DNA from: a virus
Direction: 5' to 3' (one strand)
Virus record (IMG/VR): IMGVR_UViG_3300045988_093487
DNA length: 64,000 bases
The notes beneath the pieces were generated by a model. The model was not told where the DNA came from. It worked only from the letters and a program-made list of their open reading frames with translations, and did no database searches. Of this stretch, positions 4,701 to 63,888 are shown piece after piece. Both the position numbers and the translations under genes were made by a program. Each line of letters begins with the position of its first letter. Position 1 is the first letter of the stretch.

Positions 4701-4708
4701 AAAACCCC

Positions 4709-4737: not shown

Positions 4738-4771
4738 AATGATGTCAAAGATGTTTGACAGGAGGGTTTAT

Positions 4772-12384: not shown

Positions 12385-12412
12385 TGCAGGGTGTATGCCC
12401 TGCTTTTATATG
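12385..12412 (+). terminator. rho-independent terminator
   Basis: gcagggtgtatgccctgc hairpin plus ttttat. Confidence 0.55.
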
Positions 12413-12506
12413 GGGTATTAGTCTAACTGGATAAAACATCACTCTCCTAAAGTGAATTTCTCCGTTCGAGTCGGGGATGCCCCACCAAAATTTTTCTTAA
12501 AACCAC

Positions 12507-12535
12507 TTGACAAATCGCAAAAAGTATGATAGAAT
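12507..12535 (+). promoter_or_regulatory. conserved phage promoter
   Basis: aaaaccacTTGACA, 17 bp spacer, TAGAAT, then tataGGTGTTCCAAGGGGAAC leader hairpin. Confidence 0.6.
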
Positions 12536-12573
12536 ATAGGTGTTCCAAGGGGAACAGAAAGAAGGTATATTAC

Positions 12574-12786
12574 ATGAAATGTGACGCTGTAAAAGTACAC
12601 GAGTCGATTCCTATGACACCGAAGCGTCTTTATGAGTGGGCTGTTGCAAACGGTGTTGAAGATTGTCAGATGTATTTTCCGGCAGACGAGTTTATGACCG
12701 ATGTTGACTTGACAATGGATTGTATGCACAAAGAATATCGTGGTTTTGGTAAGAACAAGGAAATGGTAGTTAATATCTGTGGGTAA
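12574..12786 (+). CDS. hypothetical protein
   Basis: ATG downstream of the promoter and leader; 70 aa. Confidence 0.4.
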   Translation: MKCDAVKVHESIPMTPKRLYEWAVANGVEDCQMYFPADEFMTDVDLTMDCMHKEYRGFGKNKEMVVNICG

Positions 12787-13087
12787 TTGTACGATGGTTT
12801 TTGTATATGAACTGAAGTACGCTGATAAACGCAAATTAGTTCCAGTCACAGAGAGTCCGAAGACGAGGACAATTGCTACGGTGATTAACAAAGTTACTGG
12901 AAACGATGTTAAGCGTTTGTATAATCGCCTGAAGCGAAGTGGCAATATGCCACAGATGGAGCATCTAAAAGATGGGAACTACCGTATTATGTATATGGCA
13001 CTGCCTAATGGGTTGAAGTTTGACCCATTCTATAAAGGTGGAACATATTACAGAGGAAGGAGCGTATTTGACCGTGATGACACTTGA
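12779..13087 (+). CDS. hypothetical protein
   Basis: 102 aa ORF overlapping its neighbours. Confidence 0.3.
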   Translation: MGNCTMVFVYELKYADKRKLVPVTESPKTRTIATVINKVTGNDVKRLYNRLKRSGNMPQMEHLKDGNYRIMYMALPNGLKFDPFYKGGTYYRGRSVFDRDDT

Positions 13088-13862
13088 TGATAGAATGAAA
13101 ACTTATTATGAGGGTGCATATCGTGTTTATCTGACGCGGCGTATGCCAGTCATTATCCGAATCGACTCTCGTGCTGGGCACACCTTCACAAAGAATCTGA
13201 AAAAGCCTTTTGATGCAGTTTTCACTGCAACTATGCAGGATACAATGAAGTATCTGTGTGAAAACATTCAGGGCTGTGTAATTGGTTATACGCAGTCTGA
13301 TGAAATTACTTTGTGCCTTGTTGATTATGACAAGCTGGAAACCGATGCTTGGTTTGGTTATAATCTAAACAAGCTGGTAAGCCTTAGTGCATCAATGGCT
13401 ACGTTGGCGTTTAATAAGTATTTTGAACGTAATGCCAATAGAACCCTCACCAAGATGGCATTGTCCTCTGGTGTGAATAAGTTTGAAATTGACGCTTACT
13501 CTGCTACATTGGCAAAGTGTAAAGAAAAGGGTTTGTGCTTCGATTCTCGCGCCTTTAATATCCCGAAGGAAGAGGCATGTAACTGTTTCTTATGGAGACA
13601 GCTTGACGCTTCTCGAAACAGTATTCAGGCGGTCGGTCAGGCAAACTTCTCGCATACTGTTCTGAATGGCAAGAGTACGTCTGAAATTCAGGATATGTTG
13701 ATGACCGAAAAAGGCATCAACTGGAACGACCTTGCGACTGAATTAAAGCGTGGCTCTTGCTGTGTACGAGATGGTAATGGCTGGTCTATTGACCGCGAGA
13801 TTCCTAAGTTTACCGGCGAAGGCCGTGACTATATTGATAAGCTGGTTTTTGTTGGAGAATAA
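13077..13862 (+). CDS. Thg1-like tRNA-His guanylyltransferase / 3'-5' polymerase
   Basis: IRIDSRAGHTFTK...KPFD...GYTQSDEITL matches the Thg1 catalytic core (RxDGRxFHxF, KPxD, YGQSDE); start codon uncertain (13020, 13077 or 13095). Confidence 0.65.
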   Translation: MTLDDRMKTYYEGAYRVYLTRRMPVIIRIDSRAGHTFTKNLKKPFDAVFTATMQDTMKYLCENIQGCVIGYTQSDEITLCLVDYDKLETDAWFGYNLNKLVSLSASMATLAFNKYFERNANRTLTKMALSSGVNKFEIDAYSATLAKCKEKGLCFDSRAFNIPKEEACNCFLWRQLDASRNSIQAVGQANFSHTVLNGKSTSEIQDMLMTEKGINWNDLATELKRGSCCVRDGNGWSIDREIPKFTGEGRDYIDKLVFVGE

Positions 13863-13863
13863 A

Positions 13864-14064
13864 ATGCCTAAATATAGTTTTGATTTTAGGTACGCATACG
13901 GAAGTTGGACATTATGTAATTTGCGTTATGAGCATTATGACATTGATGCCCCTTCTGAAAAGGAAGCATTTAAAATCGCAGAAAAACAGTTCAATGAAAC
14001 GCATAAATCTGCAATATGCGACCTCTATCGTGATAGTGATGGATGGCATAAACTTCTTTGGTGA
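13864..14064 (+). CDS. hypothetical protein
   Basis: 66 aa ORF starting ATGCCTAAATAT. Confidence 0.35.
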   Translation: MPKYSFDFRYAYGSWTLCNLRYEHYDIDAPSEKEAFKIAEKQFNETHKSAICDLYRDSDGWHKLLW

Positions 14065-14339
14065 GTATGAACATTAACATTCCGTTTTCTTGCGGCGATG
14101 TTGTGTACGCTGTAAGACCTAAAAATATGTATAACAAGGAAGCCTATATTTATAAAGGCATTGTTATTTATATTAAAGTCGAGGTTGACCGTGACAATAA
14201 AGCTAAAATTATGGCGCACGTCCGTGACCTCGATGAGACTTTAAGCGTACCTAACATCATCTATCAGAGCAGTGACAGTATCTACGCCACTCTGGATGAA
14301 GCTAGGTCAGCTAATCCAGATGTTCTGATAAAAATTTAA
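14058..14339 (+). CDS. hypothetical protein
   Basis: 93 aa ORF. Confidence 0.4.
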   Translation: MVSMNINIPFSCGDVVYAVRPKNMYNKEAYIYKGIVIYIKVEVDRDNKAKIMAHVRDLDETLSVPNIIYQSSDSIYATLDEARSANPDVLIKI

Positions 14340-14357
14340 AAAATTTCCCAAAACCCC

Positions 14358-14386
14358 TTGACAAATGATAAAAAATCTGGTATAAT
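14358..14386 (+). promoter_or_regulatory. conserved phage promoter driving the tRNA operon
   Basis: aaaaccccTTGACA, 17 bp spacer, TATAAT; leader hairpin GAGGAACgaaaGTTCCTC. Confidence 0.65.
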
Positions 14387-14421
14387 AAGGGTGTCAAGAG
14401 GAACGAAAGTTCCTCAAATAT

Positions 14422-14494
14422 ACGTCGGTAGTTTAACGGTAAAACAATGGCCTCCAAAGCCAGAAGATGATGGGTTCAAATCCCTCCCGGCGTG
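14422..14494 (+). tRNA. tRNA-Trp(CCA)
   Basis: acceptor acgtcgg/ccggcgt; anticodon loop ctCCAaa; GGGTTCAAATCCC T-arm (T-stem weakly paired); no encoded CCA. Confidence 0.55.
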
Positions 14495-14501
14495 TTTATA
14501 T

Positions 14502-14576
14502 GCGCTTATCGTTCAATGGATAGGACAAAACTCTTCTAAAGTTTTTATGTGGGTTCAATTCCTACTAGGCGTACCA
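14502..14576 (+). tRNA. tRNA-Arg(TCT)
   Basis: acceptor gcgctta/taggcgt; D-stem gttc/ggac; anticodon stem aaact/agttt with loop ctTCTaa; T-arm gtggg-ttcaatt-cctac; 3' CCA encoded. Confidence 0.7.
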
Positions 14577-14578
14577 CA

Positions 14579-14662
14579 GACGCATACAGCAATCCATAAA
14601 TTTTAATGGTTTAAAAAGAATGCTTAAAACAATCTTTCACGGTTCGATTCCGTTCTGCGTCT
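14579..14662 (+). tRNA. atypical tRNA-like gene (possible Leu-TAA, non-canonical D region)
   Basis: acceptor agacgca/tgcgtct (7/7) and cggTTCGATTccg T-arm, but about 14 extra nt around the D-arm; candidate anticodon arm gaatg-cttaaaa-caatc. Confidence 0.3.
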
Positions 14663-14739
14663 AATTTTTAGTTATTCTTCATCTTTATCTGAACTCGATA
14701 GACACGAACAGCAACACTTTCTTTGTTCGCGCCACTAAT

Positions 14740-14812
14740 TGCGAATATAGTTTAGATGGTTAGAACGCCACACCAAAATGTGGAGACGTGGGTTCGAGTC
14801 CCACTTATAGTT
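14740..14812 (+). tRNA. tRNA-like element / probable tRNA pseudogene
   Basis: canonical D-arm (tagtttagatggttagaac) and T-arm (gtgggTTCGAGTcccac) but a 6-nt anticodon loop (ccaaaa) and a poorly paired acceptor. Confidence 0.3.
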
Positions 14813-14823
14813 GTGTCTAATAT

Positions 14824-14896
14824 GCCCGGTTAGTCAAGTTGGCTAAGACGAGTGACTCTCAATCACTAGGCGGCAGTTCAATCCTGCCACCGGGTA
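14824..14896 (+). tRNA. tRNA-Glu(CTC)
   Basis: acceptor gcccggt/accgggt; anticodon stem agtga/tcact with loop ctCTCaa; T-arm ggcag-ttcaatc-ctgcc. Confidence 0.6.
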
Positions 14897-14901
14897 CTTT
14901 A

Positions 14902-14929
14902 TGGTCGAGTAGCTCAGTTGGTTAGAGCA
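14902..14929 (+). pseudogene. 5' fragment of a tRNA gene (acceptor + D-arm only)
   Basis: ggtcgagtagctcagttggttagagcag matches the 5' third of the tRNA-Lys and tRNA-Ile genes in this cluster, then diverges; lies next to the endonuclease gene. Confidence 0.45.
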
Positions 14930-14944
14930 GTAAATAAATGAGGT

Positions 14945-15703
14945 ATGAATATGGTAAACTCAAAGATGAAGGGTAATATTGCAGAATCGCGTGTTCTTTA
15001 TGAATTTGTTTAGAGGGGAATACCAGTTTCAATACCTTATGGCGATAATGAACGCTATGATATGATAGCGGAATTTAATGGGAAACTGAACAAGATACAG
15101 ATAAAGTTTTGTAATCAACAGATAGTTGATGGTTCGATAAGTTGCCCATGTTCTAATATAGTGAGTCCATTAACAAAAAGTAAGCACAGGGAATTATATG
15201 TTAATGACGTTGATTATATGGCATTTTACATATATGTATGGGATGTTGCTGTTATAATTCCAACAAGTTACATAGGGAATAGGATTCAGATAAAGATTAG
15301 AAAAGAACGCACAAAGAATAATCAAACTACAGCATCTACTTTTGTTGATGATTTTACATTTGATAAGATTGTTGGTACAGATATTCGTAATGTGATAGAA
15401 GAGCAACAAAATACCTACGAGAAGGCATATAATAGATGTATTGATTGTGGATGTATCATATCTGATAGAGCCGTAAGATGTTTAAAATGCAGAAACTTGA
15501 AGCAATACGAAGAAACAGCGAATCCGAATATGATAGATAGGGATACGCTCAAATCTATGATTAGAAATACACCGTTTAAGCATATTGCATCTATATGTGG
15601 AGTCTCGGATAACTGTATTAGAAATTGGTGTAAAAGGTATAATCTTCCATACCGCACATCTGATATTAAGAAATATACAGATGACGAGTGGAATGATATA
15701 TGA
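14945..15703 (+). CDS. Hjc/PD-(D/E)xK-type homing endonuclease with C-terminal Zn-finger/HTH, containing an in-frame TAG
   Basis: MNMVNSKMKGNIAESRVLYEFV-TAG-RGIPVSIPYGDNERYDMIAEFNGKLNKIQIKF matches Hjc-like nuclease motifs (GxxxE...D...K) across the TAG; CIDCGC...CLKCR zinc finger; the ORF track only shows the part from 15062. Confidence 0.5.
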
Positions 15704-15843
15704 TTTTGTTAGCTAATTACAAAAACAATATCCTACTGACATAATAATACCCATTTTTCGGTTTGGATAACAGCGCATAGGTATAAAAGTCTGTGATTAT
15801 TGGATAGGCTAACAATGACTGCTGGAAAGACAGCGTTTTATAT

Positions 15844-15920
15844 GCGGCAGTAGTTCAACTGGATAGAACAATCGGCTACGAACCGATAGGTTGCGAGTTC
15901 AAGTCTTGTCTGCCGTACCA
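15844..15920 (+). tRNA. tRNA-Arg(ACG)
   Basis: acceptor gcggcag/ctgccgt; anticodon stem atcgg/ccgat with loop ctACGaa; T-arm gcgag-ttcaagt-cttgt; CCA encoded. Confidence 0.7.
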
Positions 15921-16042
15921 GATAAATGAATCTTAAATTACGCTGGACAAAGGATAGCCTTTTATGGGAGACTGTTACGACAGTAACCCTGATTATCGGT
16001 GATGATGCTAACTCATGAGAGTGCGTAAGCCGACATTTATAT

Positions 16043-16118
16043 GTGCGTGTACTCGAATTGGCATAGAGAACGGTCTAAGAAGCCGTGTTTTGTGGGTTCA
16101 AGTCCCACCATGCACACC
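16043..16118 (+). tRNA. tRNA with anticodon AAG (Leu-like, short variable arm)
   Basis: acceptor gtgcgtg/catgcac; anticodon stem acggt/gccgt with loop ctAAGaa; T-arm gtggg-ttcaagt-cccac; A73; CCA encoded. Confidence 0.55.
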
Positions 16119-16122
16119 AGAA

Positions 16123-16243
16123 TACAGTATGGTTTCAATGGTAAAACATCACCCAAATAAGAATGTGTCTATGCAGACATAAGCCGCAACTGTTTTTCTT
16201 AAAAGCCAAGGTGAAGATGTCGGTTCGACCCCGACTGCTGTAT
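16123..16243 (+). tRNA. tRNA-like gene with about 50-nt insertion in the anticodon region
   Basis: perfect acceptor tacagta/tgctgta; D-arm gttt-caatggta-aaac; T-arm gtcgg-ttcgacc-ccgac; the region between D and T arms is about 55 nt too long and contains the hairpin tgtct-atgc-agaca. Confidence 0.35.
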
Positions 16244-16250
16244 TTATTAT

Positions 16251-16326
16251 GCGAGATTAACTCAACTGGAAGAGTGCCACTCTTACAAAGTGGAAGGTAC
16301 AAGTTCGAGTCTTGTATTTCGCACCA
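16251..16326 (+). tRNA. tRNA-Val(TAC)
   Basis: acceptor gcgagat/atttcgc; D-stem actc/gagt; anticodon stem ccact/agtgg with loop ctTACaa; T-arm acaag-ttcgagt-cttgt; CCA encoded. Confidence 0.7.
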
Positions 16327-16413
16327 TACGACAGTTTATAAGCAAAACAAGTTCTGTCGGTGATAAGACAAAAGACTTAATTGGCGGTTGAGTGACCTTA
16401 AACTCACCATTAT

Positions 16414-16529
16414 GGCTGTGTAGCTCAACTGGTAGAGCGCGTAAAACCTATCTATTTTAGATAGTAACAGCTACACATTTTTCCATTATAAGGACGAGGT
16501 TTATGGTTCGAGTCCATACGCAGCCACCA
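16414..16529 (+). tRNA. tRNA-like gene with about 40-nt insertion
   Basis: acceptor ggctgtg/cgcagcc; canonical D-arm tagctcaactggtagagc; T-arm tatgg-ttcgagt-ccata; CCA encoded; extra hairpin tatcta-tttt-tagata between the D and T arms. Confidence 0.35.
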
Positions 16530-16585
16530 GAAAATCTAAAAGAAGGGAAATGAATCCGATGCAGTAGATTGATAATAACAATCCA

Positions 16586-16822
16586 ATGGTTTTCTTTCAA
16601 ATGTTGGGTGAAGTTGCTGGTGACAACATCATGAGCAAGATTTCCCGACTAAAGATTGGTGAAGAAAACGGAATTGTTACTTTATATCTAAGAGATGAAC
16701 GCGAACCGTTCAACGATAGTGAACTTAGACAGCTAAAATACATCTTAGAAAGATGGTATGATATAATTTCTTTTAGGCGTGAAGATAGGCTTACTATGTT
16801 AGATATGAAGGTAAGAAAATGA
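16586..16822 (+). CDS. hypothetical protein inside the tRNA cluster
   Basis: 78 aa ORF; start uncertain. Confidence 0.3.
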   Translation: MVFFQMLGEVAGDNIMSKISRLKIGEENGIVTLYLRDEREPFNDSELRQLKYILERWYDIISFRREDRLTMLDMKVRK

Positions 16823-16920
16823 CCCTCCTTTATTTTTATATATAAAAAGACACATCCAGCAAACTTTTATTAAATTTTGAGTAGCCTTATGGTTCAATTT
16901 TTAATGTGTCTTTTAGATTT

Positions 16921-17008
16921 GCCAGTGTAGTTCAGTTGGTAGAACGCGGGTTTTGTAATCCCGATGCCGAAAGGGTTCTCGCAGGTTCAAGTCCTGTCAC
17001 TGGCTCCA
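16921..17008 (+). tRNA. tRNA with anticodon TGT (Thr-like) and a 17-nt variable region
   Basis: acceptor gccagtg/cactggc; D-arm gttc-agttggta-gaac; anticodon stem cggg(t)/(t)cccg with loop ttTGTaa; T-arm gcagg-ttcaagt-cctgt; CCA encoded. Confidence 0.5.
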
Positions 17009-17009
17009 T

Positions 17010-17085
17010 GCCACTTTAATTCAGTAGATAGAATGATGCGTTCGTACCGCATACGTCGTAGGTTTAATTCCTACAGGTGGCTCCA
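17010..17085 (+). tRNA. tRNA-Thr(CGT)
   Basis: acceptor gccactt/aggtggc; D-stem attc/gaat; anticodon stem atgcg/cgcat with loop ttCGTac; T-arm gtagg-tttaatt-cctac; CCA encoded. Confidence 0.7.
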
Positions 17086-17222
17086 ATCGCACCTATACCG
17101 TGGTAGAATAGGTATAGGCAAGTATTTTAACTACCGTGTCCATAGAGTTAATGGACTTGGGAGGTACTGACAAGACAGAAGAGCAAGTACCATGCACGTG
17201 GGCGGGTATTCGTGCTTTCATT

Positions 17223-17300
17223 TGCGTTCGTAGCTCAGTTGGTTAGAGCAATCGCCTTTTAAGCGATGGGTCGGGAGTTCGAGTCTCTTCGGGCGCACCA
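17223..17300 (+). tRNA. tRNA-Lys(TTT)
   Basis: acceptor gcgttcg/cgggcgc; D-arm tagctcagttggttagagc; anticodon stem atcgc/gcgat with loop ctTTTaa; GTTCGAGTC T-loop; CCA encoded. Confidence 0.7.
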
Positions 17301-17453
17301 CGCGGTAAGTAGTTTTCGAGTTGCGACTATTGTAGCTGGTATTCGTAAAAAATATAGTAAATGCGTGATATGACAGTATGCCGTGTTTGTGTTAAGGAAC
17401 AAGCACATTGCGGATAAACCGATGACTGCTGGAAAGACAGCAATTTATGTTTC

Positions 17454-17530
17454 CATAGCTCAGTTGGTTAGAGCGCAATCCTGATAAGATTGAGGTCGAA
17501 TGTTCAATTCATTCTGGAAACACCACTTAT
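17454..17530 (+). tRNA. tRNA-Ile(GAT)
   Basis: acceptor gtttcca/tggaaac; anticodon stem caatc/gattg with loop ctGATaa; T-arm gaatg-ttcaatt-cattc; CCA encoded. Confidence 0.7.
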
Positions 17531-17648
17531 TTTTGAAGTATTATAAAGATACTTTGAAATCTGATAGAAAATATCGTGTATTCACTAGGTATGAAACCGC
17601 TGGATGCAACGATACTCGCGTTATGCCTTTAGTAATCAAGGCATAATA

Positions 17649-17739
17649 TGTGGTAGTACCCAAGAGGTTGAAGGGGCTTGCTTGGAAAGCAAGTAGGCGG
17701 CGTATACCGTGCAGGGGTTCAAATCCCTTCTACCACGCC
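17649..17739 (+). tRNA. tRNA-Ser(GGA), type II
   Basis: perfect acceptor gtggtag/ctaccac; 3-bp D-stem; anticodon stem cttgc/gcaag with loop ttGGAaa; 19-nt variable arm; T-arm agggg-ttcaaat-ccctt; G73 and CCA encoded. Confidence 0.7.
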
Positions 17740-17866
17740 ACGACCGTAAAGATGAACAAAATAGAGCATACGGTGTTACAAAACCGTCTCGGAGTGATTG
17801 TACCACAGGGAGATTTAACGGAGTATATGCTCGATGTGTGGTTCGCAAAACCTAAATTGCAAATGT

Positions 17867-17941
17867 GCGTCATGCGCCAGACGGCTAGGCGAGAGACTGC
17901 AAATCTCTTTTAGATTGGTTCGACTCCAATATGACGCTCCA
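17867..17941 (+). tRNA. tRNA-Cys(GCA)
   Basis: acceptor gcgtcat/atgacgc; anticodon stem agaga/tctct with loop ctGCAaa; T-arm attgg-ttcgact-ccaat; CCA encoded. Confidence 0.7.
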
Positions 17942-18258: not shown

Positions 18259-18970
18259 ATGAAGAAACTGCTAGGAGCTATCATTGCTTTGCTTACAACA
18301 TTCGCAATAATTTGCGCTGTGGCAGTTCCGTCAAAGGCGGCAGATTTTAGTGACAAGTTTGAATTATACGAATCGTGGAATAACAATCTAAAAGTATATA
18401 CAAGAGAAGTGAGCGAGGAACTTGATGTTCCGTATTCTGCGTTAGTTGCTATTATCTATCACGAGTCAAGATTTAAGAACGATGTTGGCACAAGCTATAT
18501 TGGCCTAATGCAAGTTGGATGTACGTCAGATATTTTGAATTTTCTTTCAAATAATGGACTAAAAACATCTAAGAAAGGTTTGTATAACCCAGAGACAAAC
18601 ATTAGAGCTGGTGCATTGATTCTTAGATACGCAATGGATAAAGCCACAAATATGGAAGATGCGTTCTATATTTATACTTGCGGCGAGGGTGCTGTAAAAA
18701 AGCGAAAGGCGAACGGTCAGAAGAAAAATAAAGCTACTATTGAAATTACAGAGCTTTATTACGAATATTCTGAATACTTTGCTGAATAGGGTAAATCTGA
18801 TTATCGACAGTTCCTATTAGATGAACTAAATGGGGTTCAGTCAGAACTCGACGAGACGAACGGTTTGCTTCAGTCTTGTGAAGTGTATCAGTCCGACTAT
18901 TACAACCAGCAGTTGTTGTTTATAGAGCAAAAGATAGACTTCATAAATTCTGAATTAAAAAATTTAGAAT
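18259..18970 (+). CDS. lytic transglycosylase (SLT domain) with signal peptide; in-frame TAG at 18787-18789 then a 60-codon extension
   Basis: signal peptide MKKLLGAIIALLTTFAIICAVA; SLT motif ESRFKNDVGTSYIGLMQV; after the TAG the frame stays open for 60 codons (GKSDYRQFLLDELNG...ELKNLE) to a TAA at 18968-18970, just before the next promoter. Confidence 0.55.
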
Positions 18971-18976
18971 AACCTC

Positions 18977-27799: not shown

Positions 27800-27809
27800 C
27801 AAAATTACG

Positions 27810-40099: not shown

Positions 40100-40101
40100 T
40101 T

Positions 40102-40365
40102 ATGAAGATTAAGATTGATTTTATCGTTGAAAACAGTATGGATGCCGCGCAGATTGACGAAAATTTACGTAACGCAATCGCTGCTGGTGTTCCTGAGACT
40201 ACGGTTGCTGGGCAGATTCGTGACGAGTTTAAGCGGATGTTTTCTAGCATGATGATGGGAAATGACATTAACGGTAAGCCTGTTACTGCCGATGTTGTAG
40301 GCGTAGAAGTGTTTGCAAACTCCGATGATACTTCCGTATTTTCTGAATGGCACAAGGAGGACTAA
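40102..40365 (+). CDS. hypothetical protein
   Basis: 87 aa ORF. Confidence 0.4.
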   Translation: MKIKIDFIVENSMDAAQIDENLRNAIAAGVPETTVAGQIRDEFKRMFSSMMMGNDINGKPVTADVVGVEVFANSDDTSVFSEWHKED

Positions 40366-55510: not shown

Positions 55511-56140
55511 TTATCTAACAAACATTGCTTTCCAAGTATTCATACCTACAATTCCATCGGCAGTTAGATTATGTGCTCTCTGGAATTTTTTTACCTCATC
55601 TTCAGTGTTCTTTCCAAATTGACCATCAATAGGTATACCAAGTTTCTTTTGAACGAATTTTACAGCACTTGCTTTACCAACATTCGTTCCGCGTTTGATA
55701 ATTGGCATTAGGTCAACTCTATAATATTCGTATACGCCAGCTCTTGCACAAAGCCAAAATGTTTCTCTTGGTCTGGTATCAACATGGATAAAGTTCGTGT
55801 TACCGTAGTAGTACACTCCAACACCATTCGTGATAGTTTGTGCGTAATATGCCAATTCAACAGCGGAAACACCAGCAATCTGGATATCTGCCGCCATACC
55901 TTTTACATGATAGGAACCAGCAGAACCACCGACCCTGCGGTTATGCTCTGGGGTACGATATGCAGAATTTATTACAACCGGCTTACCAAAATAGTCACGG
56001 ATTTTTTGTAGAACTTCAACGAGAGCTGTATCAATAAGAACGGAGTCAGAACCATCCTTACAGGCGAACTCTTTTACAGTAAAATTTGTAGATAATTTTG
56101 TATTACCGTGTTCCTTTAGACTGTATGTTTTAACAGCCAT
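55511..56140 (-). CDS. endolysin: M15 peptidase (VanY-like) with C-terminal peptidoglycan-binding domain
   Basis: SAYRTPEHNRRVGGSAGSYHVKGMAADIQI (M15 zinc peptidase); C-terminal FQRAHNLTADGIVGMNTWKAM (PG_binding_1-like). Confidence 0.7.
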   Translation of the reverse strand: MAVKTYSLKEHGNTKLSTNFTVKEFACKDGSDSVLIDTALVEVLQKIRDYFGKPVVINSAYRTPEHNRRVGGSAGSYHVKGMAADIQIAGVSAVELAYYAQTITNGVGVYYYGNTNFIHVDTRPRETFWLCARAGVYEYYRVDLMPIIKRGTNVGKASAVKFVQKKLGIPIDGQFGKNTEDEVKKFQRAHNLTADGIVGMNTWKAMFVR

Positions 56141-56583
56141 TATACCATCCCTTTCTTAGATAAATAATATTTAGGTTTTTCTTCGTGGAACAAGAAGTAT
56201 CTTAAATAATCGTCAACGATAATAGCAACGATGCATAAGAAAAACCACAGAATAGTAAACGGTAAGCAAATCTAACCAAGAATATTAAATGGTAGATTTG
56301 AATAATCCCAAATGTGAAGACCCAGAAATAGATTTAGTATAATTCCTGCGATAAACTCACAACACGTTACAACAAGTGCACCAATTATAGACTGTTTCCA
56401 AATTTCCATTTTCCAAGGTAGATAATTATTTAATCCACCAATGACAACAAAACAAAAACCTCCAAGAACGCCCATTGTCCAATGAGTATGTCCGCGACAA
56501 AGCATCTCTATTCCGCAATATGCAAAACCACCAATTAAAAACAAGATTATAATTTTAAGTGATTCTTTTGCAAGATTTCTCAT
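56141..56583 (-). CDS. membrane protein with in-frame TAG; readthrough form ends in a TAATG overlap with the endolysin start
   Basis: 103 codons, TAG at 56272-56274, then 43 more in-frame codons including a TM helix (ICLPFTILWFFLCIVAIIV) ending at TAA 56140-56142, which overlaps the endolysin ATG. Confidence 0.55.
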
Positions 56584-57256: not shown

Positions 57257-58054
57257 TTACGCTACCACATGCCCAGTGTCGTCCACCGTCGCGTCCTGCG
57301 GCAGAATTATACAGGGGCGGATACCAGCCAAGTCGTAGCAGGCGAAAGTACTCCGGTCGCCAACGGAGTCGATAGTAATGGCATATCCACTGTCGGCACA
57401 GAATGGAGAGCGGAGCCACCAGTATGTGGCAGAGCCGTCGAGGAATGCGATACGCTTAGAATCCGAGCTATCATCCGCACAGCCCTTGAAATAGGCCAGC
57501 TCCGCACCTTCGCCGCTCGGCATATAGGGGAAGTTGAAACTCGTTTCGGTCGCACTGAGCAGGAAAATCTTCGCAGACAGGCCGTTCGAGCCGCTGGTGA
57601 CAATCGTAGACGTGTTGCCGCCTTTGCGGTACGGGAGCTTTACCTGCTTGATGGCGTTCTTGATGTTCGGCTCGAGAAGGTTTAGGAATGTGCTGTTCAG
57701 GTAGGAGTGGATGGTGCTGTTGGCGTAGTCGTTAGTGCCCGAACTACGCCACTGGCTGTTTTCGTAGATGTCTTTCATCAGCAGCCACGTGCCATTGCAG
57801 CTTGCGTCATAAATACCAGCATCCGGAATGCCCTGATGCACCACCAGCCAGTCGTAGTCCTTGCCGCTCACGGCGATTTTGACGGTCTTACCCACTTCGT
57901 AGCCGCCAAGCAGCGTGCCGCGCTGATACCACAATCTAGCAACCCCATTCACACCAATGTATGCCTTCTGGACTTGACGTGCTTTACCGTCTACTCCGAT
58001 ATACATCTTGGAGATGCTTTTCGCCACCCCCCCAATTCCGATATATGCACTCAT
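57257..58054 (-). CDS. putative receptor-binding protein with DUF1566/C-type-lectin-like C-terminus; candidate DGR target
   Basis: C-terminal ATYWWLRSPFCADSGYAITIDSVGDRSTFACYDLAGIRPCIILP resembles the DUF1566 ending (YW..S...A...G...VRP); the whole gene is far more GC-rich than the phage; GC-driven overlapping ORFs in other frames are artefacts. Confidence 0.5.
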   Translation of the reverse strand: MSAYIGIGGVAKSISKMYIGVDGKARQVQKAYIGVNGVARLWYQRGTLLGGYEVGKTVKIAVSGKDYDWLVVHQGIPDAGIYDASCNGTWLLMKDIYENSQWRSSGTNDYANSTIHSYLNSTFLNLLEPNIKNAIKQVKLPYRKGGNTSTIVTSGSNGLSAKIFLLSATETSFNFPYMPSGEGAELAYFKGCADDSSDSKRIAFLDGSATYWWLRSPFCADSGYAITIDSVGDRSTFACYDLAGIRPCIILPQDATVDDTGHVVA

Positions 58055-58745: not shown

Positions 58746-58979
58746 TTACGAATAAACGAACAAGACTGTATCGGTCTCCAAAGGGCTTCCGGCTCCGGGG
58801 TCAGATGTCTATGCCTTGAATTTAAAATTATTTACATTATCAATAGATTCTACATTGATTGTTCCATCGCTTTCTACATTTATTCCCTTACCTATTTTAA
58901 CCCCGCCAATATCCTCTTTGGTTGCAGGGGAAAGGGCCATATATCCACCTATAGACGTTGGGCCATAAGCCATATTCAT
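58746..58979 (-). CDS. small tail-fibre-like protein with in-frame TAG
   Basis: MNMAYGPTSIGGYMALSPATKEDIGGVKIGKGINVESDGTINVE shares the GGVKVGSGLTVDADGTLS motif with the large fibre; TAG at 58809-58811, then 20 codons ending at a TAA that overlaps the next gene's RBS (TAAGGAGG). Confidence 0.4.
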
Positions 58980-59104: not shown

Positions 59105-62100
59105 TTAACCAACTCTTTTCCAGATGTGCACATAGTAGGCGGCGGGCTGCACGGTATAGCTGCGACCGTAGATTGAGTTCGAGCGGGAAGCATCAAAGTA
59201 AACATCATACGTCGAACCTGACGTACCACTGTAGCCACCCCAAGAAGTATTGATTTCTACGAATTTTAAAGCTCCCGATGATTTCAAAGACGCTTTTGAA
59301 CCACGGAATGGGGAGGACTCTGCGGTTGCTTCTATTAAGCTGCCCGTGATGTTCGGCAGTCCGGCCTCCACCGTGCTTCCCGCTGTGTAGCCTGTGCCAG
59401 CACCCATCAGCACGCGGTTAAATGCAATCTCCTGCCATGTACCGCCGAACAGTGCGGCGGGACTGGTAGTGCTGACTGTTTGAAAAATACTGCCCACCGG
59501 GTAGGCAGACAGGCCGCTGTCCGCAGAAAGTGTTCCGTCCGCATCGACCGTCAGACCGCTGCCCACCTTCACGCCGCCCAGCGTGGTGGCGGTGGCAGCA
59601 GGGAGGGTGTATTCCTGAGCATCAGCACTCAATACACCTTTATTAGAAACTTTTAGCCCCTCTCCTACAATGATGCCACCTAGCTCTGTCGTCGTTGCAG
59701 GGGGCAGCATTGCTCCACCAATAGGGGTTTGACCAAAACTCATAAGGATATCTTCTCGGATAATGTAATAAAAAGCTTTAATAGATTCCGTTGGGATGTT
59801 ACGAGCACGGATTCTCAAATAATTAGGTAATGATTCTGTTGAAGTAAAATAACATTTTTTAGCGACTACATTACTATCTGGTGCAATGACAAGTGCAACA
59901 CAATCACTTCCTGTAATTCCTGTAGCTACAATGTCAATATAATTCGGATATGCAGAGTTACTATCTTGGTTCCATCCAGTTGTGGGAATCGTAATAGATA
60001 CAAGATTTATTTTTTCTGCTGCCTCATAACCAAGTGCTCCGTCAACGTTGTCTTTTATTAAACTAATCAAGCCTTTATTACCAACTGTAATATTGTCTCC
60101 AATTTGTACAATACCGGCATTAGTTCTCGTAGCATAATTAGTGTCTGTAACAACGCTTGTTTTAGAATAAGGAGTGATAGCTTGGTCAACAGAGGGGGCA
60201 TTTGCGGAGTATTTTAATACATATCCCCAATTGTCTTTTTTAGCTATAGATACATTGATAATAGAATTAAAGAATGTAGAGTCCGTGTTTATCCATAGTT
60301 CTGCATTACTCTGACCGTTTCCACCCGATGTTGGGATTAAATAGAAAAACTCTTTTTTTGTTGAATTGTTTTCGATATCTACATCGGAAGATTTTAGCTT
60401 ATCATCATACATAATATAAGAGAAAATGTAGGCTGTAGACAAATCGTTACTATTTGTTTGTGCTAAGTCATGGATGAATAATGTAATATTCTTACTATAA
60501 GCGACAGAGTTATTTTCTGTTGAAACAATTGTAGGACAGTTAATCTCAATTTTTATTAAATCACCGTCTGATGTGTTAGAAATGTTTCCTACATGAAACC
60601 ATGTTTGTCCGGTTACAGTAGACGCAGGGATGGTTTCTGTTAATATATATCCTTTTGGAGCAGCGCCGTCAATTGTGCTCGTCTCATTATTGCCCTTTGT
60701 GATGATGATTTTATCCCCTGTTGGACGCAAATCTTTGATGTACGTCGCATCTATTTGTTGACCAATAGAGTCATTTGTTGCGCTGTCTGCGCTAGTCGCA
60801 GTGTCAGCGTTACCAGTTAGATTACCAACAAACTTAGCATCACCGCTCATAGTAATGTCGCCAGTCATTGTACCGCCACTAAGTTTCAACGTGCCAACTA
60901 ATGCGTTTGCTACATTAGTCTCGCTTGTTTTAGCATTAGTTTCACTAATCTTCGCTTTATCTTCAGATGCCTTTGCTGCGTTTTGACTTACAAGAGCAGC
61001 GGCGGCAGATGCTGCGGCATCATTAGCAGATTGCTGTGAATTATCCGCATAGCTACTTGCGTTCTGTTCTGAAGCAGCAGCGTTAGTCTCGCTTGTTTTA
61101 GCATTAGTTTCACTAATCTTCGCTTTATCTTCAGATGCCTTTGCTGCGTTTTGACTTACAAGAGCAGCGGCGGCAGATGCTGCGGCATCATTAGCAGATT
61201 GCTGTGAATTATCCGCATAGCTACTTGCGTTCTGTTCTGAAGCAGCAGCGTTAGTCTCGCTTGTTTTAGCATTAGTTTCACTAATCTTCGCTTTATCTTC
61301 AGATGCCTTTGCTGCGTTTTGACTTGCAAGAGCAGCGGCGGCAGATGCAGCGGCATCATCAGCAGATTGCTGTGAATTATCCGCATAGCTACTTGCGTTC
61401 TGTTCTGAAGCAGTTGCGTTTATTTCTGATTGCTTTGCCGCCTTTTCTGATGCCAATGCTTTGGTTTCACTGGTTTTAGCAGCATTTTGAGAATTTAAAG
61501 AGGCTTGTGCCGAATTTGCAGAATCACTTGCAGAACTAGCCGAATCATCAGCGCTTGTCTTAGATGCGTTTTCTGAAGCTTTCGCGTTTTGTTCCGAAAT
61601 CTTAGCATTAGCTTCTGATGTAGCAGATGCAGTCTATGAAGCCTTTGCTTTATTTGCACTATCCGCTGCATTTGTCTCCGATGTCGCGGCATTCTGCTCA
61701 GACTGTTTAGCATTAGCTTCAGAAGTAGCGGCGGCTTGTGCAGATTTTTGAGCAGCAATCTGATAATTATGTGCATTTATTTCAGATTGTCTAATACTCT
61801 CAGCGGAAGCAGCGGCGGCATCTTTATATGCGTTTGCGTTAGCTTCAGAAGCGGCTGCATTACTAGCTGATACGGCTGCTGCATTTTTATAACTTTCTGC
61901 ATTGACTTCAGAAGCCTTTGCGTTGTCTTCAGACTTCTTAGCGGCCTCGGCAGCATTCATAGCGTCATCGTGGTAGCTACCAATTATTTTTTGGAATGTT
62001 GCAATAGCATCTGTCCAAACATCTGGATTTTTTGATGCAGAACCAACATCGAGCAGTCCTTTTTCGATATTCAAAACCTATGGTTTTGTATGTAAAATAT

Positions 62101-62461
62101 ACTAACCTTCTTCTGCCGCATCAGTAATGCGCCCATCATATATAGAAATATCATAAGTCAAAGTACCACTCGCGGCAGTTGCCTTTTGACTTAAATACCA
62201 AGGGAATATAATATATCTTTTTTCTCCATCAGTCTTAACTTCGCGAGTGTCGGAAAAGAAAGTATCAAATTGACCAAGAGCATTAACATACCGAATAGCT
62301 AAGATTTTATCTGTAATATCAACATCATCAATAACAGCCGGAATCTTAAACTTCAGAATACGCGAGTCGTTATCGTCAACAACAGCGATATTTTCCGTTG
62401 CGCATGGTACAATATCTCTATTTCTAATTTCAAAAATATATGAACTCAAATATTTCACCAT
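59105..62461 (-). CDS. tail fibre protein (about 1119 codons) containing three in-frame TAG codons
   Basis: ORFs 62102-62461, 61634-62074 and 59105-61456 are all in one frame, separated only by TAG codons at 62102-62104, 62078-62080 and 61634-61636; the Ala/Ser-rich repeat sequence continues unbroken across the 61634 TAG; no ATG or usable RBS exists for the internal segments; start ATG 62461 has RBS gaagga. Confidence 0.65.
60915..61420 (-). repeat. three near-identical tandem 168-bp (56-aa) repeats inside the tail fibre gene
   Basis: period 168 bp from ttagtctcgcttg at 60915, 61083 and 61251; encodes ASEQNASSYADNSQQSANDAAASAAAALVSQNAAKASEDKAKISETNAKTSETNAA three times. Confidence 0.8.
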
Positions 62462-62671: not shown

Positions 62672-62837
62672 AGTCCTCCATTCCTACTTCATCAGAAGCA
62701 ACTGCGTCAGTTGGCAAATCAATATCAGACATCACGGCAATATACTCAATCAGTGATTGCTGATTGCTAATCTGTGCATTACGATATTCTGCCATTTTCT
62801 CCTCATGAGGAGACATGATTGCCTTTTCAAATACCAT
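62672..62837 (-). CDS. hypothetical small protein
   Basis: 55 aa ORF between the reverse transcriptase and the XkdX-like gene. Confidence 0.3.
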
Positions 62838-62841
62838 AATT

Positions 62842-63888
62842 CTACCTCCATAATTCGTAATAGAATTGATTCATCCTTTGTATTAGCTTATATGAATTAC
62901 CATGTTCTGCATGAGCAACCCAACAGCTATAACATTGGTCTATCTTTTCTTTAGTTCTACGACCTTTTACAACAAGTTTAACCATTTTGCGCAATTTACG
63001 CTTTTCGTTCTTAACATTATCACCAAGAATTGACATAACAACTTTGCCAGTTTCAGTAAGCCTGAACTTAAATCCCAAGAAAGGAATACCCTGACCAACT
63101 CTATACAGTTTAGTTTTCTTAGGATGTAGTTCAAGACCAATTTTAGCTAATTCTTCTTGAATCTCGTGCATACACTTAATCAAGTAATTTCTGTCGTGAT
63201 GAATAAGAACAAAATCATCCATATATCTGATATAATACTTAATGTGCATACGTTCTTTAATCTTATGGTCAAGTTTATCCAGAACAGAAATGCCAGCAAT
63301 CTGAACGACTTGGCTACCGGGATTATACCCGGTATCACCGAGATATTGTTCATTTAATATTCTACAGACTCTATCTGCATATTCTGCTGGTAATTTCTCT
63401 CTAAACAAGGCATTTGTTGTATCGTGCCGCATATTATCATAATAGTGTTTAATGTCGCATTGAAGAACCCAAGCATCAAGACCGTTCTTTCTATAGCATC
63501 TTTGCAGATGACATTTTAAACGACCTCTAGCAAAATCAGTTCCTTTTCCTTTTTGACAAGCACAATTATCATAAATAAAACTTCGAGTCATTAACGGATA
63601 CACTATATTGTCATTAAGGCTACGTTGATACACTCTGTCTCTAAAAGCTATGCTTACAGCAATTCTTTCTTTTGGATGAGTGATATGAACCGTCTTAGTC
63701 GGGCGAGGTTGGTATGTTCCGTCTGCTAGTTGCTTTTCCAATTTAAGAACCTGTTCAATTCCATGAATATAGAAATTAGCAACAGATTCTTTCCAGCTAA
63801 CATTTTTCTTACACTTATATAAAGAATCAAGTAGGTGCTCGAAGTCTAGGACATTTACTACTTGATTCGATTCCTAATTGTTACTCAT
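62842..63888 (-). CDS. reverse transcriptase, DGR-type, with in-frame TAG at codon 5
   Basis: GTYQP, RIAVSIAFRDRVYQRSL, QCDIKHYYDNM (motif A), GYNPGSQVVQIAGI (SQ variant of the QGxxxSP motif, the DGR hallmark), YIRYMDDFVLI (YxDD); the conserved N-terminus LDFEHLLDSLYKCKK... is reachable only from ATG 63888 through the TAG at 63874-63876; the ORF track starts at an internal TTG; the gene ends with TAG at 62842-62844 and a TGA 5 codons later. Confidence 0.65.

What the first reader, a model, noticed from the sequence alone, without database searches (positions are those of the whole stretch)
56141..56583. TAG readthrough of a lysis-cassette membrane protein ends in a TAATG overlap with the endolysin start
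- The 103-aa membrane protein ORF upstream of the endolysin ends with TAG at 56272-56274.
- The frame then stays open for another 43 codons encoding a further transmembrane helix (ICLPFTILWFFLCIVAIIV...).
- It terminates at a TAA at 56140-56142 whose last A is the A of the endolysin ATG. This is the classic TAATG translational-coupling junction.
- A junction placed this precisely is hard to explain unless the TAG is translated.
Basis: seen in the sequence. Interest (0 to 1): 0.75.

Follow-up and report, generated by a model that had tools for sequence, protein, structure and literature searches.

The report
Amber codon read as glutamine
The TAG inside this phage lysis-cassette membrane gene is almost certainly a glutamine codon, because this gut phage lineage uses TAG as a sense codon in its late genes; that is a known phenomenon, here probably served by an unusual five-armed suppressor tRNA encoded elsewhere in the genome.

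Summary
A 103-codon ORF (56583->56275, minus strand) ends in TAG at 56274-56272. The frame stays open for 43 more codons to a TAA at 56142-56140, which overlaps the endolysin ATG.

- **Homology crosses the TAG.** Pfam PF06541 and PHROG 20274 both match through it. All 120 homologues listed have Gln at that column.
- **The gene is not a special case.** The same window has three in-frame TAGs in the tail fibre, one in a small tail ORF, one in an SLT gene and probably one in a reverse transcriptase.
- **TAG swaps with Gln codons.** In close relatives these sites align only with TAG, CAG or CAA (53 of 53 aligned codon pairs). Relatives' tail genes hold up to six TAGs each.
- **TAG is rare as a terminator.** Where it does end a gene, a second stop follows within 1-4 codons.

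This is amber-to-glutamine recoding of late genes (code 15), as already described for gut phages. It is not gene-specific readthrough.

No suppressor tRNA lies in the window. Relatives' contigs covering the missing part of the genome carry a conserved 97-98-nt, five-arm tRNA with a CUA anticodon and a tRNA-Gln-like acceptor stem. ARAGORN misses or mislabels it.

Verdict: a real, ordinary member of a known kind. The odd suppressor tRNA is worth following up.

The parts
56140..56583 (-). Full-length gene for a PF06541 (ABC_trans_CmpB-like) multi-pass membrane protein: 147 sense codons plus TAA, with TAG as codon 104
   Evidence: Translation. Pfam match at 49.4 bits against a 25.9 cut-off, covering residues 37-122. 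PHROG 20274 E = 2e-40 over residues 19-145. The 120 best homologues listed (of 890 with E<=0.001) are 138-251 aa long, nearly all 138-152 aa, and run uninterrupted.
56272..56274 (-). In-frame TAG, read as Gln, at the invariant Gln of the LGQICLPF motif just before the last transmembrane helix
   Evidence: 120 of 120 homologues have Q here. Relatives carry TAG, CAG or CAA at this codon. Six TAG-bearing alleles show 3 synonymous and 1 non-synonymous variants downstream, with no frameshifts or extra stops.
56138..56142 (-). TAATG junction: the TAA of the membrane-protein gene overlaps the ATG of the endolysin
55511..56140 (-). Endolysin (Peptidase_M15_3 plus PG_binding_1), with no in-frame TAG
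55182..55493 (-). 103-aa hydrophobic protein downstream of the endolysin (phrog_34925); possible holin; no TAG
59105..62461 (-). Tail-fibre gene of 1118 codons that standard code splits into three ORFs. In-frame TAGs at 62104-62102, 62080-62078 and 61636-61634
   Evidence: In L029 the first and third sites are CAG and the second is TAG. Across relatives all three align only with TAG or CAG. PHROG tail-fibre matches span the third TAG.
58746..58979 (-). 77-codon tail-associated ORF with TAG at 58811-58809. The 20-codon extension closes the gap to the next gene
   Evidence: The site is CAG in L003 and in two other relatives.
62827..63888 (-). Reverse transcriptase of a diversity-generating retroelement. 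Possible in-frame TAG at 63876-63874 (codon 5). A TAG at 62844-62842 is followed four codons later by TGA
   Evidence: Relatives have TAG where the window has CAA at two other RT codons.
18259..18972 (+). Lytic transglycosylase (SLT) gene with in-frame TAG at 18787-18789 and a 60-codon coiled-coil-like extension
   Evidence: The TAG is kept in five relatives and the final stop position is conserved although the codon differs, TAA versus TGA. The extension is homologous and continuous in MT835481.1.
12412..17941 (+). Cluster of 13 tRNA genes, none with a CUA anticodon, plus a degenerate tRNA-like element at 14741-14812

Best explanation
The window comes from a large gut phage of Firmicutes, about 115 kb as usually assembled and about 150 kb with a further 43-kb segment. 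Its late genes use TAG as a minor glutamine codon.

**What the gene encodes.** The gene upstream of the endolysin encodes one 147-aa PF06541-type protein whose strongest hydrophobic segment (residues 99-132) lies mostly after the TAG. Codon 104 (TAG) stands for the invariant Gln of the LGQICLPF motif.

**How TAG is decoded (inferred).** A phage-encoded amber suppressor tRNA lies about 33 kb upstream of window position 1, on the early-gene strand. It is a 97-98-nt tRNA-Gln-like molecule with a CUA anticodon and an extra stem-loop. Host enzymes presumably charge it with Gln.

**Consequence (inferred).**
- Before the suppressor accumulates, ribosomes stop at TAG. The tail fibre (three TAGs) cannot be made, and the membrane protein is truncated to 103 aa without its last helix.
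- Once the suppressor is abundant, full-length proteins appear.
- Ribosomes that finish the 147-aa ORF terminate on the TAATG and can re-initiate on the endolysin. The endolysin also has its own ribosome-binding site.

**Shown:** the TAG is in-frame in a conserved gene. TAG is equivalent to CAG/CAA across relatives. Recoding is confined to late-type genes. The CUA tRNA exists, shows covariation, and sits in relatives' contigs.

**Inferred:** the same tRNA is present in the window's own genome. It is charged with Gln. Recoding has a timing or lysis-gating role.
For: 1. Pfam and PHROG matches run through the TAG.
2. The TAG column is Q in 120 of 120 homologues.
3. The TAG is kept in six distinct alleles from independent assemblies. 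The region downstream is still under purifying selection, with 3 synonymous and 1 non-synonymous variants and no indels or stops.
4. The window holds more in-frame TAGs: three in the tail fibre, one in orf77, one in SLT and one possible in the RT.
5. Codon-level comparison with relatives gave 29 TAG:TAG, 17 TAG:CAG and 1 TAG:CAA pairs, plus 6 pairs where the window has CAA/CAG and the relative has TAG. There were no other pairings (examples).
6. Relatives' tail genes carry up to six in-frame TAGs each.
7. TAG makes up 7 of 97 Gln-type codons in the late genes of the window. It ends only 2 of 77 plus-strand genes. One of those is the SLT case and the other is followed by TGA one codon later. 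The RT TAG is followed by TGA after four codons.
8. The plus-strand block encodes replication and nucleotide-metabolism functions in standard code.
9. A tRNA with anticodon loop CUCUAAA or UUCUAAC sits next to tRNA-Gln(CUG) in 12 contigs of the homologous region. Its Rfam tRNA score is 42.3 bits against a 29-bit gathering threshold.
10. Four structurally distinct sequence types (five with the G73/A73 difference) of that tRNA show compensatory changes in all five helices. U33-C34-U35-A36-A37 is invariant, as are U1-A72, G2-C71 and G10. Position 73 is G or A.
11. The 148.6-kb contig that physically links the window-like sequence to this region extends 16,672 nt beyond L086. The distance predicted from L088/L099 to their contig end is 16,616 nt.
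12. Published work describes the same pattern: late and lysis genes recoded, including a transmembrane protein of a lysis cassette and a holin. Metaproteomics has confirmed code 15 in other phages (10.1101/2021.08.26.457843, PMC10607447, PMC9523058).
Against: - No suppressor tRNA lies in the 64-kb window.
- No canonical suppressor tRNA lies in the roughly 113-kb contigs of relatives.
- The candidate CUA tRNA was seen only on separate contigs of about 43 kb from other samples. Its presence in the window's own genome rests on synteny and contig-length arithmetic.
- The tRNA is non-canonical, with five arms. ARAGORN misses it or calls it Val(aac). Its function as a decoder and its amino-acid identity are untested.
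- A long extra arm is a hallmark of Ser, Leu and Tyr tRNAs in bacteria.
- Recoding is sparse, at about 7% of Gln codons in late genes, and the major capsid gene of relatives has none. A strong timer role is therefore not demonstrated.
- The endolysin and the downstream hydrophobic protein have no TAG. The endolysin has its own SD-like sequence, so lysis is not strictly gated.
- One TAG in a relative aligns with Tyr in another relative.
Confidence: 0.85

Rival explanations
1. Gene-specific programmed readthrough. A leaky TAG in this one gene gives two isoforms, a 103-aa product and a minor 147-aa product, through near-cognate decoding by ordinary tRNA-Gln. The extension would serve to couple endolysin translation.
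For: - The junction with the endolysin ATG is exact.
- The phage lineage encodes ordinary tRNA-Gln(UUG) and tRNA-Gln(CUG). From established knowledge, these are the near-cognate readers of UAA and UAG when over-expressed.
- Recoding is sparse.
Against: - TAG occurs in-frame in at least four other genes of the window. One essential tail-fibre gene has three, which low-efficiency readthrough could not sustain.
- TAG and CAG swap freely between close relatives.
- There is no stimulatory RNA structure downstream (z = -0.11), and the TAG sites share no common sequence context.
- A dedicated CUA tRNA is conserved in the lineage.
- The TAG sits at an invariant residue inside a conserved motif. It is not at a domain boundary as in known readthrough extensions.
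Confidence: 0.06
2. Nonsense mutation, decaying gene or assembly error. The 103-aa ORF would be a truncated remnant and the downstream 43 codons untranslated.
For: CAG to TAG is a single transition, and a Gln column is exactly where such a mutation would arise. Gene callers in public collections call only the 103-aa product.
Against: - The same TAG is present in six alleles from independent samples and assemblers. The downstream frame is intact and changes there are mostly synonymous.
- Many other late genes, including essential ones, carry TAGs at Gln positions.
- The terminating TAA still lands on the endolysin ATG.
Confidence: 0.02
3. TAG is a sense codon but stands for an amino acid other than Gln. 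Candidates are Ser, Leu or Tyr, because the CUA tRNA has a long extra arm like bacterial class II tRNAs, or pyrrolysine.
For: The candidate suppressor has a 17-19-nt extra stem-loop in the variable region. From established knowledge, SerRS recognises a long variable arm independently of the anticodon. One TAG in relative L042 aligns with Tyr in L043.
Against: - All 53 aligned codon pairs involving TAG are TAG, CAG or CAA, with none to TCG, TTG or TAY.
- The column is invariant Q in 120 homologues.
- The acceptor stem has U1-A72, G2-C71, G3-C70 (C3-G70 in one of the five types) and G73/A73, plus G10. From established knowledge these match the E. coli tRNA-Gln identity set.
- The D arm resembles the neighbouring tRNA-Gln(CUG).
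- No pyl genes were seen in any fetched locus, and the tRNA does not have the compact tRNA-Pyl shape.
Confidence: 0.05

Closest known systems
Code-15 (TAG to Gln) stop-codon-recoded gut phages: crAss-like phages and the gemstone clades of Borges et al. (10.1101/2021.08.26.457843), confirmed by metaproteomics in Peters et al. (PMC9523058)
   Same: - In-frame TAGs at Gln positions in structural and lysis genes.
- Replication genes in standard code.
- TAG depleted as a terminator.
- A suppressor tRNA encoded in the standard-code part of the genome.
- A transmembrane protein of the lysis cassette among the recoded genes.
- A predicted standard-code Firmicutes host.
   Different: - Recoding here is sparse, at about 7% of Gln codons in the late genes of the window.
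- The lysis enzyme itself is not recoded.
- The candidate suppressor is a five-arm tRNA that standard finders miss.
- No release factor or aminoacyl-tRNA synthetase gene turned up in the partial annotation of the fetched loci (Pfam labels on called genes; PHROG scans of selected window ORFs).
- Assignment to a named clade was not tested. The roughly 150-kb size, TAG use and Firmicutes host resemble the published 'Sapphire' description.
phAss-1 / proposed Phassvirus (PMC10607447)
   Same: A human-gut phage of about 136 kb with many tRNAs, TAG to Gln in 41 ORFs including tail fibre and holin, and no dedicated synthetase.
   Different: phAss-1 has two or three canonical tRNA-Sup(CTA) genes found by tRNAscan-SE and far denser recoding, at 28% of ORFs. 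No sequence relationship to this window was detected in the GenBank phage searches.
E. coli supE (glnV) amber suppressor tRNA-Gln(CUA)
   Same: A tRNA-Gln body with G36 changed to A, giving a CUA anticodon. It has the U1-A72, G2-C71, G3-C70 acceptor stem and inserts Gln at UAG.
   Different: supE is a canonical 75-nt cloverleaf and a weak suppressor, because GlnRS reads G36. The phage tRNA carries an additional conserved hairpin whose 7-nt loop (CUCUGAC or GUCUGCA) repeats the U-CUG of a tRNA-Gln anticodon loop.
Programmed stop-codon readthrough (Q-beta A1 protein, murine leukaemia virus gag-pol)
   Same: A stop codon inside a longer functional reading frame, with a C-terminally extended product.
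   Different: Those are single, low-efficiency events that depend on local context or structure and give two functional isoforms. Here the TAGs are many, interchange with CAG, sit at conserved Gln positions and lack a downstream structure.

Membership tests
Stop-codon-recoded phage, TAG to Gln (genetic code 15) | Several genes with conserved homologues are interrupted by in-frame TAG and become full-length when TAG is read as sense | tested here: met
   CmpB-like protein, tail fibre (three TAGs), orf77 and SLT, with the RT possible. Family matches span the TAGs.
Stop-codon-recoded phage, TAG to Gln (genetic code 15) | In-frame TAGs align with Gln (CAA/CAG) in homologues | tested here: met
   120 of 120 homologues have Q at the CmpB column. 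All 53 codon pairs are TAG, CAG or CAA.
Stop-codon-recoded phage, TAG to Gln (genetic code 15) | Recoding concentrated in late (structural and lysis) genes, with replication genes compatible with standard code | tested here: met
   All in-frame TAGs lie in the minus-strand late block, apart from the SLT gene. Primase, helicase, polymerase and related genes are intact in code 11.
Stop-codon-recoded phage, TAG to Gln (genetic code 15) | TAG avoided as a true terminator | tested here: met
   TAA 59, TGA 24 and TAG 6 in a rough gene map. Four of the six TAGs are in-frame cases, and the other two have a second stop 1 or 4 codons later.
Stop-codon-recoded phage, TAG to Gln (genetic code 15) | A phage-encoded suppressor tRNA with a CUA anticodon | tested here: inconclusive
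   Absent from the window. Present as a non-canonical 97-98-nt tRNA in 12 relatives' contigs of the syntenic early region. Linkage to the window's own genome is inferred from 148-kb contigs.
Stop-codon-recoded phage, TAG to Gln (genetic code 15) | Peptides with Gln at TAG positions | not testable with these tools
   This needs proteomics or metaproteomics.
Programmed gene-specific stop-codon readthrough | A single leaky stop with a stimulatory context or downstream RNA structure, and an extension that is an accessory domain | tested here: not met
   There are many TAGs in different contexts. The fold downstream of this TAG is no better than shuffles. The TAG lies inside a conserved motif of a single-domain family.
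Pyrrolysine decoding of UAG | pylTSBCD genes and UAG at positions not conserved as Gln | tested here: not met
   No Pyl-related Pfam families appear among the called genes of the fetched loci. The TAG sites are Gln positions.
Pfam PF06541 (ABC_trans_CmpB, putative membrane protein) | Score above the curated gathering threshold over the domain | tested here: met
   49.4 bits against 25.9. The match is only this long when the TAG is read through. All 120 close homologues carry PF06541.
Holin | A small membrane protein that permeabilises the membrane to release endolysin, with experimental or family-level annotation | not tested
   PHROG 20274 has no known function. Position next to the endolysin is the only argument. 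The 103-aa protein at 55182-55493 is an equally good holin candidate.
tRNA (Rfam RF00005), for the candidate suppressor in relatives | Covariance-model score above gathering, with the cloverleaf helices supported by covariation | tested here: met
   42.3 bits against 29. Acceptor, D, anticodon and T helices, and the extra arm, all show compensatory changes among five sequence types.

The most novel reading that the evidence does not exclude
The amber codons of this phage, including the one in the lysis-cassette gene, may be decoded by a previously undescribed kind of suppressor tRNA. It is a five-arm tRNA-Gln derivative. The normal anticodon arm carries CUA. A second, conserved hairpin in the variable region displays a copy of the tRNA-Gln anticodon loop (U-CUG).

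That second loop could act as a decoy identity element. It would let the host's Gln-charging machinery (GlnRS, or non-discriminating GluRS plus GatCAB) accept a tRNA whose real anticodon has lost G36.

If true, it would explain how a phage gets efficient Gln insertion at UAG without its own synthetase. It would also help explain why suppressor tRNAs go undetected in most recoded phage genomes.
Probability: 0.2. Interest if true: 0.7.

Novelty: new member of a known kind. Interest (0 to 1): 0.4.

Why it matters
**Annotation.** Every public gene call seen for this lineage truncates the membrane protein to 103 aa, splits the tail fibre into three ORFs and leaves false intergenic gaps. Translation table 15, or a mixed-code caller, is needed.

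**Biology.** This is one more independent case where a membrane protein of a lysis cassette and the tail genes depend on a code switch. That fits the published idea that recoding delays late and lytic functions.

**The most useful by-product.** The candidate suppressor is a conserved tRNA with a CUA anticodon and an extra Gln-anticodon-like arm, and ARAGORN fails on it. [quoted passage not shown] This gives a concrete example to test.

Tried and rejected
- **ARAGORN at relaxed thresholds** on the window and about 30 loci produced hundreds of implausible calls. They included 'tRNA-Stop(tta)' at window 14716-14812, whose drawn structure has a mismatched anticodon stem. I rejected these as noise.
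- **The Rfam tRNA-like hit at 14741-14812** has a bad acceptor stem and no CUA, so it is not a suppressor.
- **The late-strand tRNA cluster upstream of the head genes** holds Met, Asn, Gln(UUG), Pro, Asp, Ala, Leu, Ser and Ser, with no suppressor.
- **The odd tRNAs 'Asn(att)' and Ile(tat)** in L088/L099 are not CUA.
- **GenBank phage searches** found no close relative that could supply a complete annotated genome.
- **Two scans of 185,579 bacterial genomes** for the two main sequence types of the CUA tRNA found nothing, so there is no host or prophage lead.
- **A downstream RNA structure as a readthrough stimulator** was not found.
- **A DGR template repeat inside the window** was not found. 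It lies just past position 64000, judging from relative L042.
- **Stop-to-stop ORF totals under alternative codes** were uninformative for so sparse a recoding.

Full report
**1. The observation.** On the minus strand, an ATG at 56583 opens a reading frame that meets TAG at 56274-56272 after 103 codons. The frame continues for 43 codons and ends at TAA 56142-56140. The last base of that TAA is the first base of the ATG of a 209-aa endolysin.

The endolysin has Peptidase_M15_3 and PG_binding_1 domains. It is followed by a 103-aa hydrophobic protein at 55182-55493 (phrog_34925).

An open 43-codon extension is not significant on its own. One search lists about a hundred pairs of open stretches of at least 40 codons each, in one frame and separated by a single stop.

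**2. The downstream codons belong to the same protein.** With the TAG masked, the 147-aa product matches Pfam PF06541 (ABC_trans_CmpB) over residues 37-122 at 49.4 bits, against a cut-off of 25.9. It matches PHROG 20274 over residues 19-145 with E = 2e-40. Both matches cross codon 104.

A database search found 890 homologues. The best 120 are 138-251 aa long, nearly all 138-152 aa, and uninterrupted. In their alignment the TAG column is Q in 120 of 120, inside an almost invariant LGQICLPF motif. The query carried Q at that position, which could bias word seeding slightly, but it cannot create an invariant column.

A hydropathy scan places the most hydrophobic segment at residues 99-132, mostly after the TAG.

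**3. Not an error and not a dead gene.** Two IMG/VR contigs and several ENA and Logan contigs from different samples carry the same TAG. Six distinct TAG-bearing alleles exist. Downstream of the TAG they differ by three synonymous and one non-synonymous codon variants, with no indels or extra stops. That is much like the upstream part, which has 9 synonymous and 4 non-synonymous variants. More distant relatives have CAG or CAA at the site.

**4. The gene is not a special case.** The window contains further in-frame TAGs.

- **Tail fibre.** Standard code splits it into ORFs of 119, 146 and 783 aa. It is one frame of 1118 codons (62461->59105) with TAGs at 62104-62102, 62080-62078 and 61636-61634. 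The last one lies in the middle of an alanine/serine-rich repeat that continues without a start codon for 60 codons.
- **Small tail ORF (58979->58746).** It has a TAG at 58811-58809, and the extension closes the gap to the next gene.
- **Reverse transcriptase.** It probably starts MSNN-TAG-ESNQ. It ends with TAG followed by four codons and then TGA.
- **SLT gene on the plus strand (18259-18789).** It continues for 60 codons after a TAG. That extension is present in one continuous ORF in the distant relative MT835481.1.

**5. Comparative test of the meaning of TAG.** I aligned the late genes of the window codon by codon with every fetched relative of at least 75% identity. Every pair in which either codon is TAG was one of these: TAG:TAG (29), TAG:CAG (17), TAG:CAA (1), or window CAA/CAG against relative TAG (6). 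No other codon was ever paired with TAG.

For example, contig L029 has CAG at two of the three tail-fibre sites and TAG at the third. L003 has CAG at the orf77 site.

In relatives, the structural genes upstream of the window's end carry many more TAGs. A 640-aa tail protein has six, a 1282-aa tail protein has six and the tape-measure protein has two. The major capsid gene has none.

Within the window, TAG makes up 7 of 97 Gln-type codons in late genes. It appears as a terminator in only 2 of 77 plus-strand genes. One is the SLT case and the other is followed by TGA one codon later.

The plus-strand block encodes primase-helicase, a split PolIII-alpha-like polymerase, PhoH, RNA ligase, CCA-adding enzyme and similar proteins, all intact in standard code.

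This is the signature of TAG-to-Gln recoding of late genes.

**6. Who reads TAG?** The window has 13 tRNA genes and none has a CUA anticodon. I therefore reconstructed the rest of the genome from relatives.

Most assemblies give a contig of 113-116 kb that ends about 65 nt before window position 1. Two IMG/VR contigs of about 149 kb and one ENA scaffold continue further.

Walking through the late arm found a second tRNA cluster but no suppressor. That cluster holds Met, Asn, Gln-UUG, Pro, Asp, Ala, Leu and two Ser.

Walking the other way led into a segment of about 43 kb that most assemblers output as a separate contig. It contains a third cluster: Glu, His, Gln-CUG, Leu, Leu, a ROOL RNA, Ile, Gly and sometimes Tyr.

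Directly after tRNA-Gln(CUG), Rfam's tRNA model scores 42.3 bits on a 97-nt sequence that ARAGORN does not call. In divergent relatives ARAGORN calls it Val(aac).

**7. Structure of the candidate suppressor.** Its anticodon arm is GCGCU-CUCUAAA-AGCGU, so the anticodon is CUA. Twelve contigs carry it, in five sequence variants, four of them structurally distinct.

- All five helices show compensatory changes: acceptor, D, anticodon, an extra arm and T.
- U33-C34-U35-A36-A37 never changes.
- U1-A72, G2-C71 and G10 are invariant. G3-C70 is present in four of five types. Position 73 is G or A, and CCA is encoded.
- From established knowledge, these acceptor features are the identity set of bacterial tRNA-Gln.
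- The extra arm is a 5-6-bp stem with a 7-nt loop, CUCUGAC or GUCUGCA. The loop repeats the U-CUG of a tRNA-Gln anticodon loop.

The gene lies on the same strand as the early genes, about 33 kb upstream of window position 1.

The 148.6-kb contig runs 16,672 nt beyond the last piece I could fetch. The distance predicted from the overlapping relatives to their common contig end is 16,616 nt.

The sequence is absent from 185,579 representative bacterial genomes.

**8. Mechanism.** The shown and inferred steps are as follows.

- **Shown:** TAG is a sense codon equivalent to CAG/CAA in this lineage's late genes. Codon 104 of the membrane protein is one such codon.
- **Inferred with good support:** the decoder is the phage's own CUA tRNA, charged with Gln by host enzymes.
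- **Inferred from the published model** (10.1101/2021.08.26.457843): before the suppressor accumulates, the tail fibre cannot be completed and the membrane protein is truncated before its last helix. Late functions are thereby delayed.

The TAATG overlap means that only ribosomes that read through the TAG reach the endolysin start by coupling. However, AGAAAGG nine bases upstream of the ATG is a plausible independent ribosome-binding site. The endolysin and the downstream hydrophobic protein also have no TAG. Any gating of lysis is therefore partial at most.

**9. Rivals.**

- **Gene-specific programmed readthrough.** Contradicted by the many TAGs, the TAG/CAG swaps, the position of the TAG inside a conserved motif, and the lack of a downstream structure (z = -0.11).
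- **Nonsense mutation or artefact.** Contradicted by six conserved alleles and by the other recoded genes.
- **A different amino acid.** Ser, Leu or Tyr via the long extra arm, or pyrrolysine, is not excluded biochemically. It is contradicted by the exclusively Gln codon partners and by the Gln-like acceptor stem. One TAG-to-Tyr alignment between two relatives is a single-base non-synonymous change under either code.

**10. Comparison with what is known.** The phenomenon is established.

- Borges et al. describe TAG- and TGA-recoded gut phages with recoded structural and lysis genes, including a transmembrane protein of a lysis cassette. [quoted passage not shown]
- Peters et al. confirmed code 15 by metaproteomics (PMC9523058).
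- Babkin et al. describe phAss-1, which has a TAG-containing holin and canonical tRNA-Sup(CTA) genes.

The present case is a new member of that kind. It stands apart in its sparse recoding and its unusual candidate suppressor. Two full-text searches did not turn up a description of a five-arm CUA tRNA with a second anticodon-like loop. That is not proof of novelty.

**11. Verdict.** The finding itself is an ordinary instance of a known code change, so its interest is moderate. The non-canonical suppressor tRNA found in relatives deserves separate follow-up.

Noticed in passing
L099:2787-2883 (also L100, L104, L106-L114); outside the window, about 33 kb upstream of window position 1 by synteny: A conserved 97-98-nt five-arm tRNA. 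It has a CUA anticodon, a tRNA-Gln-like acceptor stem, and an extra hairpin whose loop repeats the U-CUG of a Gln anticodon loop. ARAGORN misses it or labels it Val(aac). All helices covary among five sequence types.
   Followed up: yes
L099:4046-4609: A ROOL RNA (Rfam RF03087, 320 bits) sits inside the tRNA cluster that holds the CUA tRNA, in the early region of relatives.
   Followed up: no
window 62827-63888 (-), 57257-58054 (-); L042:7898-8019 and 8644-8765: A diversity-generating retroelement. The reverse transcriptase has a YMDD motif. In relative L042 a 122-nt template repeat differs from the C-terminal variable repeat of a DUF6273 protein at 18 positions, 17 of them template adenines. 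In the window the template repeat would lie just past position 64000.
   Followed up: partly
window 4673-6034 (+): An adenylosuccinate-synthetase-family gene matches the PHROG annotated as the PurZ-type enzyme (phrog_1211). This hints that the phage may replace adenine with 2-aminoadenine in its DNA.
   Followed up: no
window 9274-10773 (+), 14845-14950 (+); L072:884-984: A Ro60/TROVE-like RNA-binding protein (phrog_850, DUF2828/DUF7788). There are also sub-threshold Y-RNA-like (YrlA) matches next to tRNA genes, at 41.7 bits in L072 and 19.5 bits in the window.
   Followed up: no
window 14741-14812 (+): A tRNA-like element (Rfam tRNA, 43.6 bits) that ARAGORN does not call. It has a mismatched acceptor stem and an odd anticodon loop (CCAAAA), and it is conserved in relatives. 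It is probably a degenerate tRNA.
   Followed up: partly
window 24799-26457, 26783-27799, 27809-29344 (+): The PolIII-alpha-like DNA polymerase is split into two ORFs that match consecutive parts of one PHROG. A 338-aa ORF of unknown function lies between them and may be a mobile insertion.
   Followed up: no
window 2-1123, 1773-2615, 49346-50812 (+); L047:6396-7618: A set of RNA and tRNA repair or translation-related genes: RNA ligase, RlaP and CCA-adding enzyme in the window, and YqeY (GatB-like domain) and peptidyl-tRNA hydrolase PTH2 just upstream of the window in relatives.
   Followed up: no
window 40097-40105 (+) and 62827-62844 (-): The two TAGs that look like true terminators are backed up by a second stop 1 and 4 codons later (TAG TTA TGA, and TAG plus NYGI then TGA). 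This is expected if TAG termination is unreliable late in infection.
   Followed up: yes
window 60915-61418 (-): Three tandem copies of a 168-nt unit (100%, 100% and 97% identical) inside the tail-fibre gene. They encode a 56-aa Ala/Ser/Asn-rich repeat, and the copy number differs among relatives.
   Followed up: partly
L099:8817-8896 (also L088:617-696, L090, L091): An unusual 80-86-nt tRNA with anticodon AUU, an extended acceptor stem, a 4-bp T stem and an enlarged variable region. It stands apart from the main clusters in the early region.
   Followed up: no
window start; L048-L052 ends; L099/L100 ends: Independent assemblies break at the same two places: about 65 nt upstream of the RNA ligase gene, and about 11 kb upstream of the HU gene. 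They yield contigs of roughly 115 kb and 43 kb. This suggests repeats or strain-variable junctions there.
   Followed up: partly
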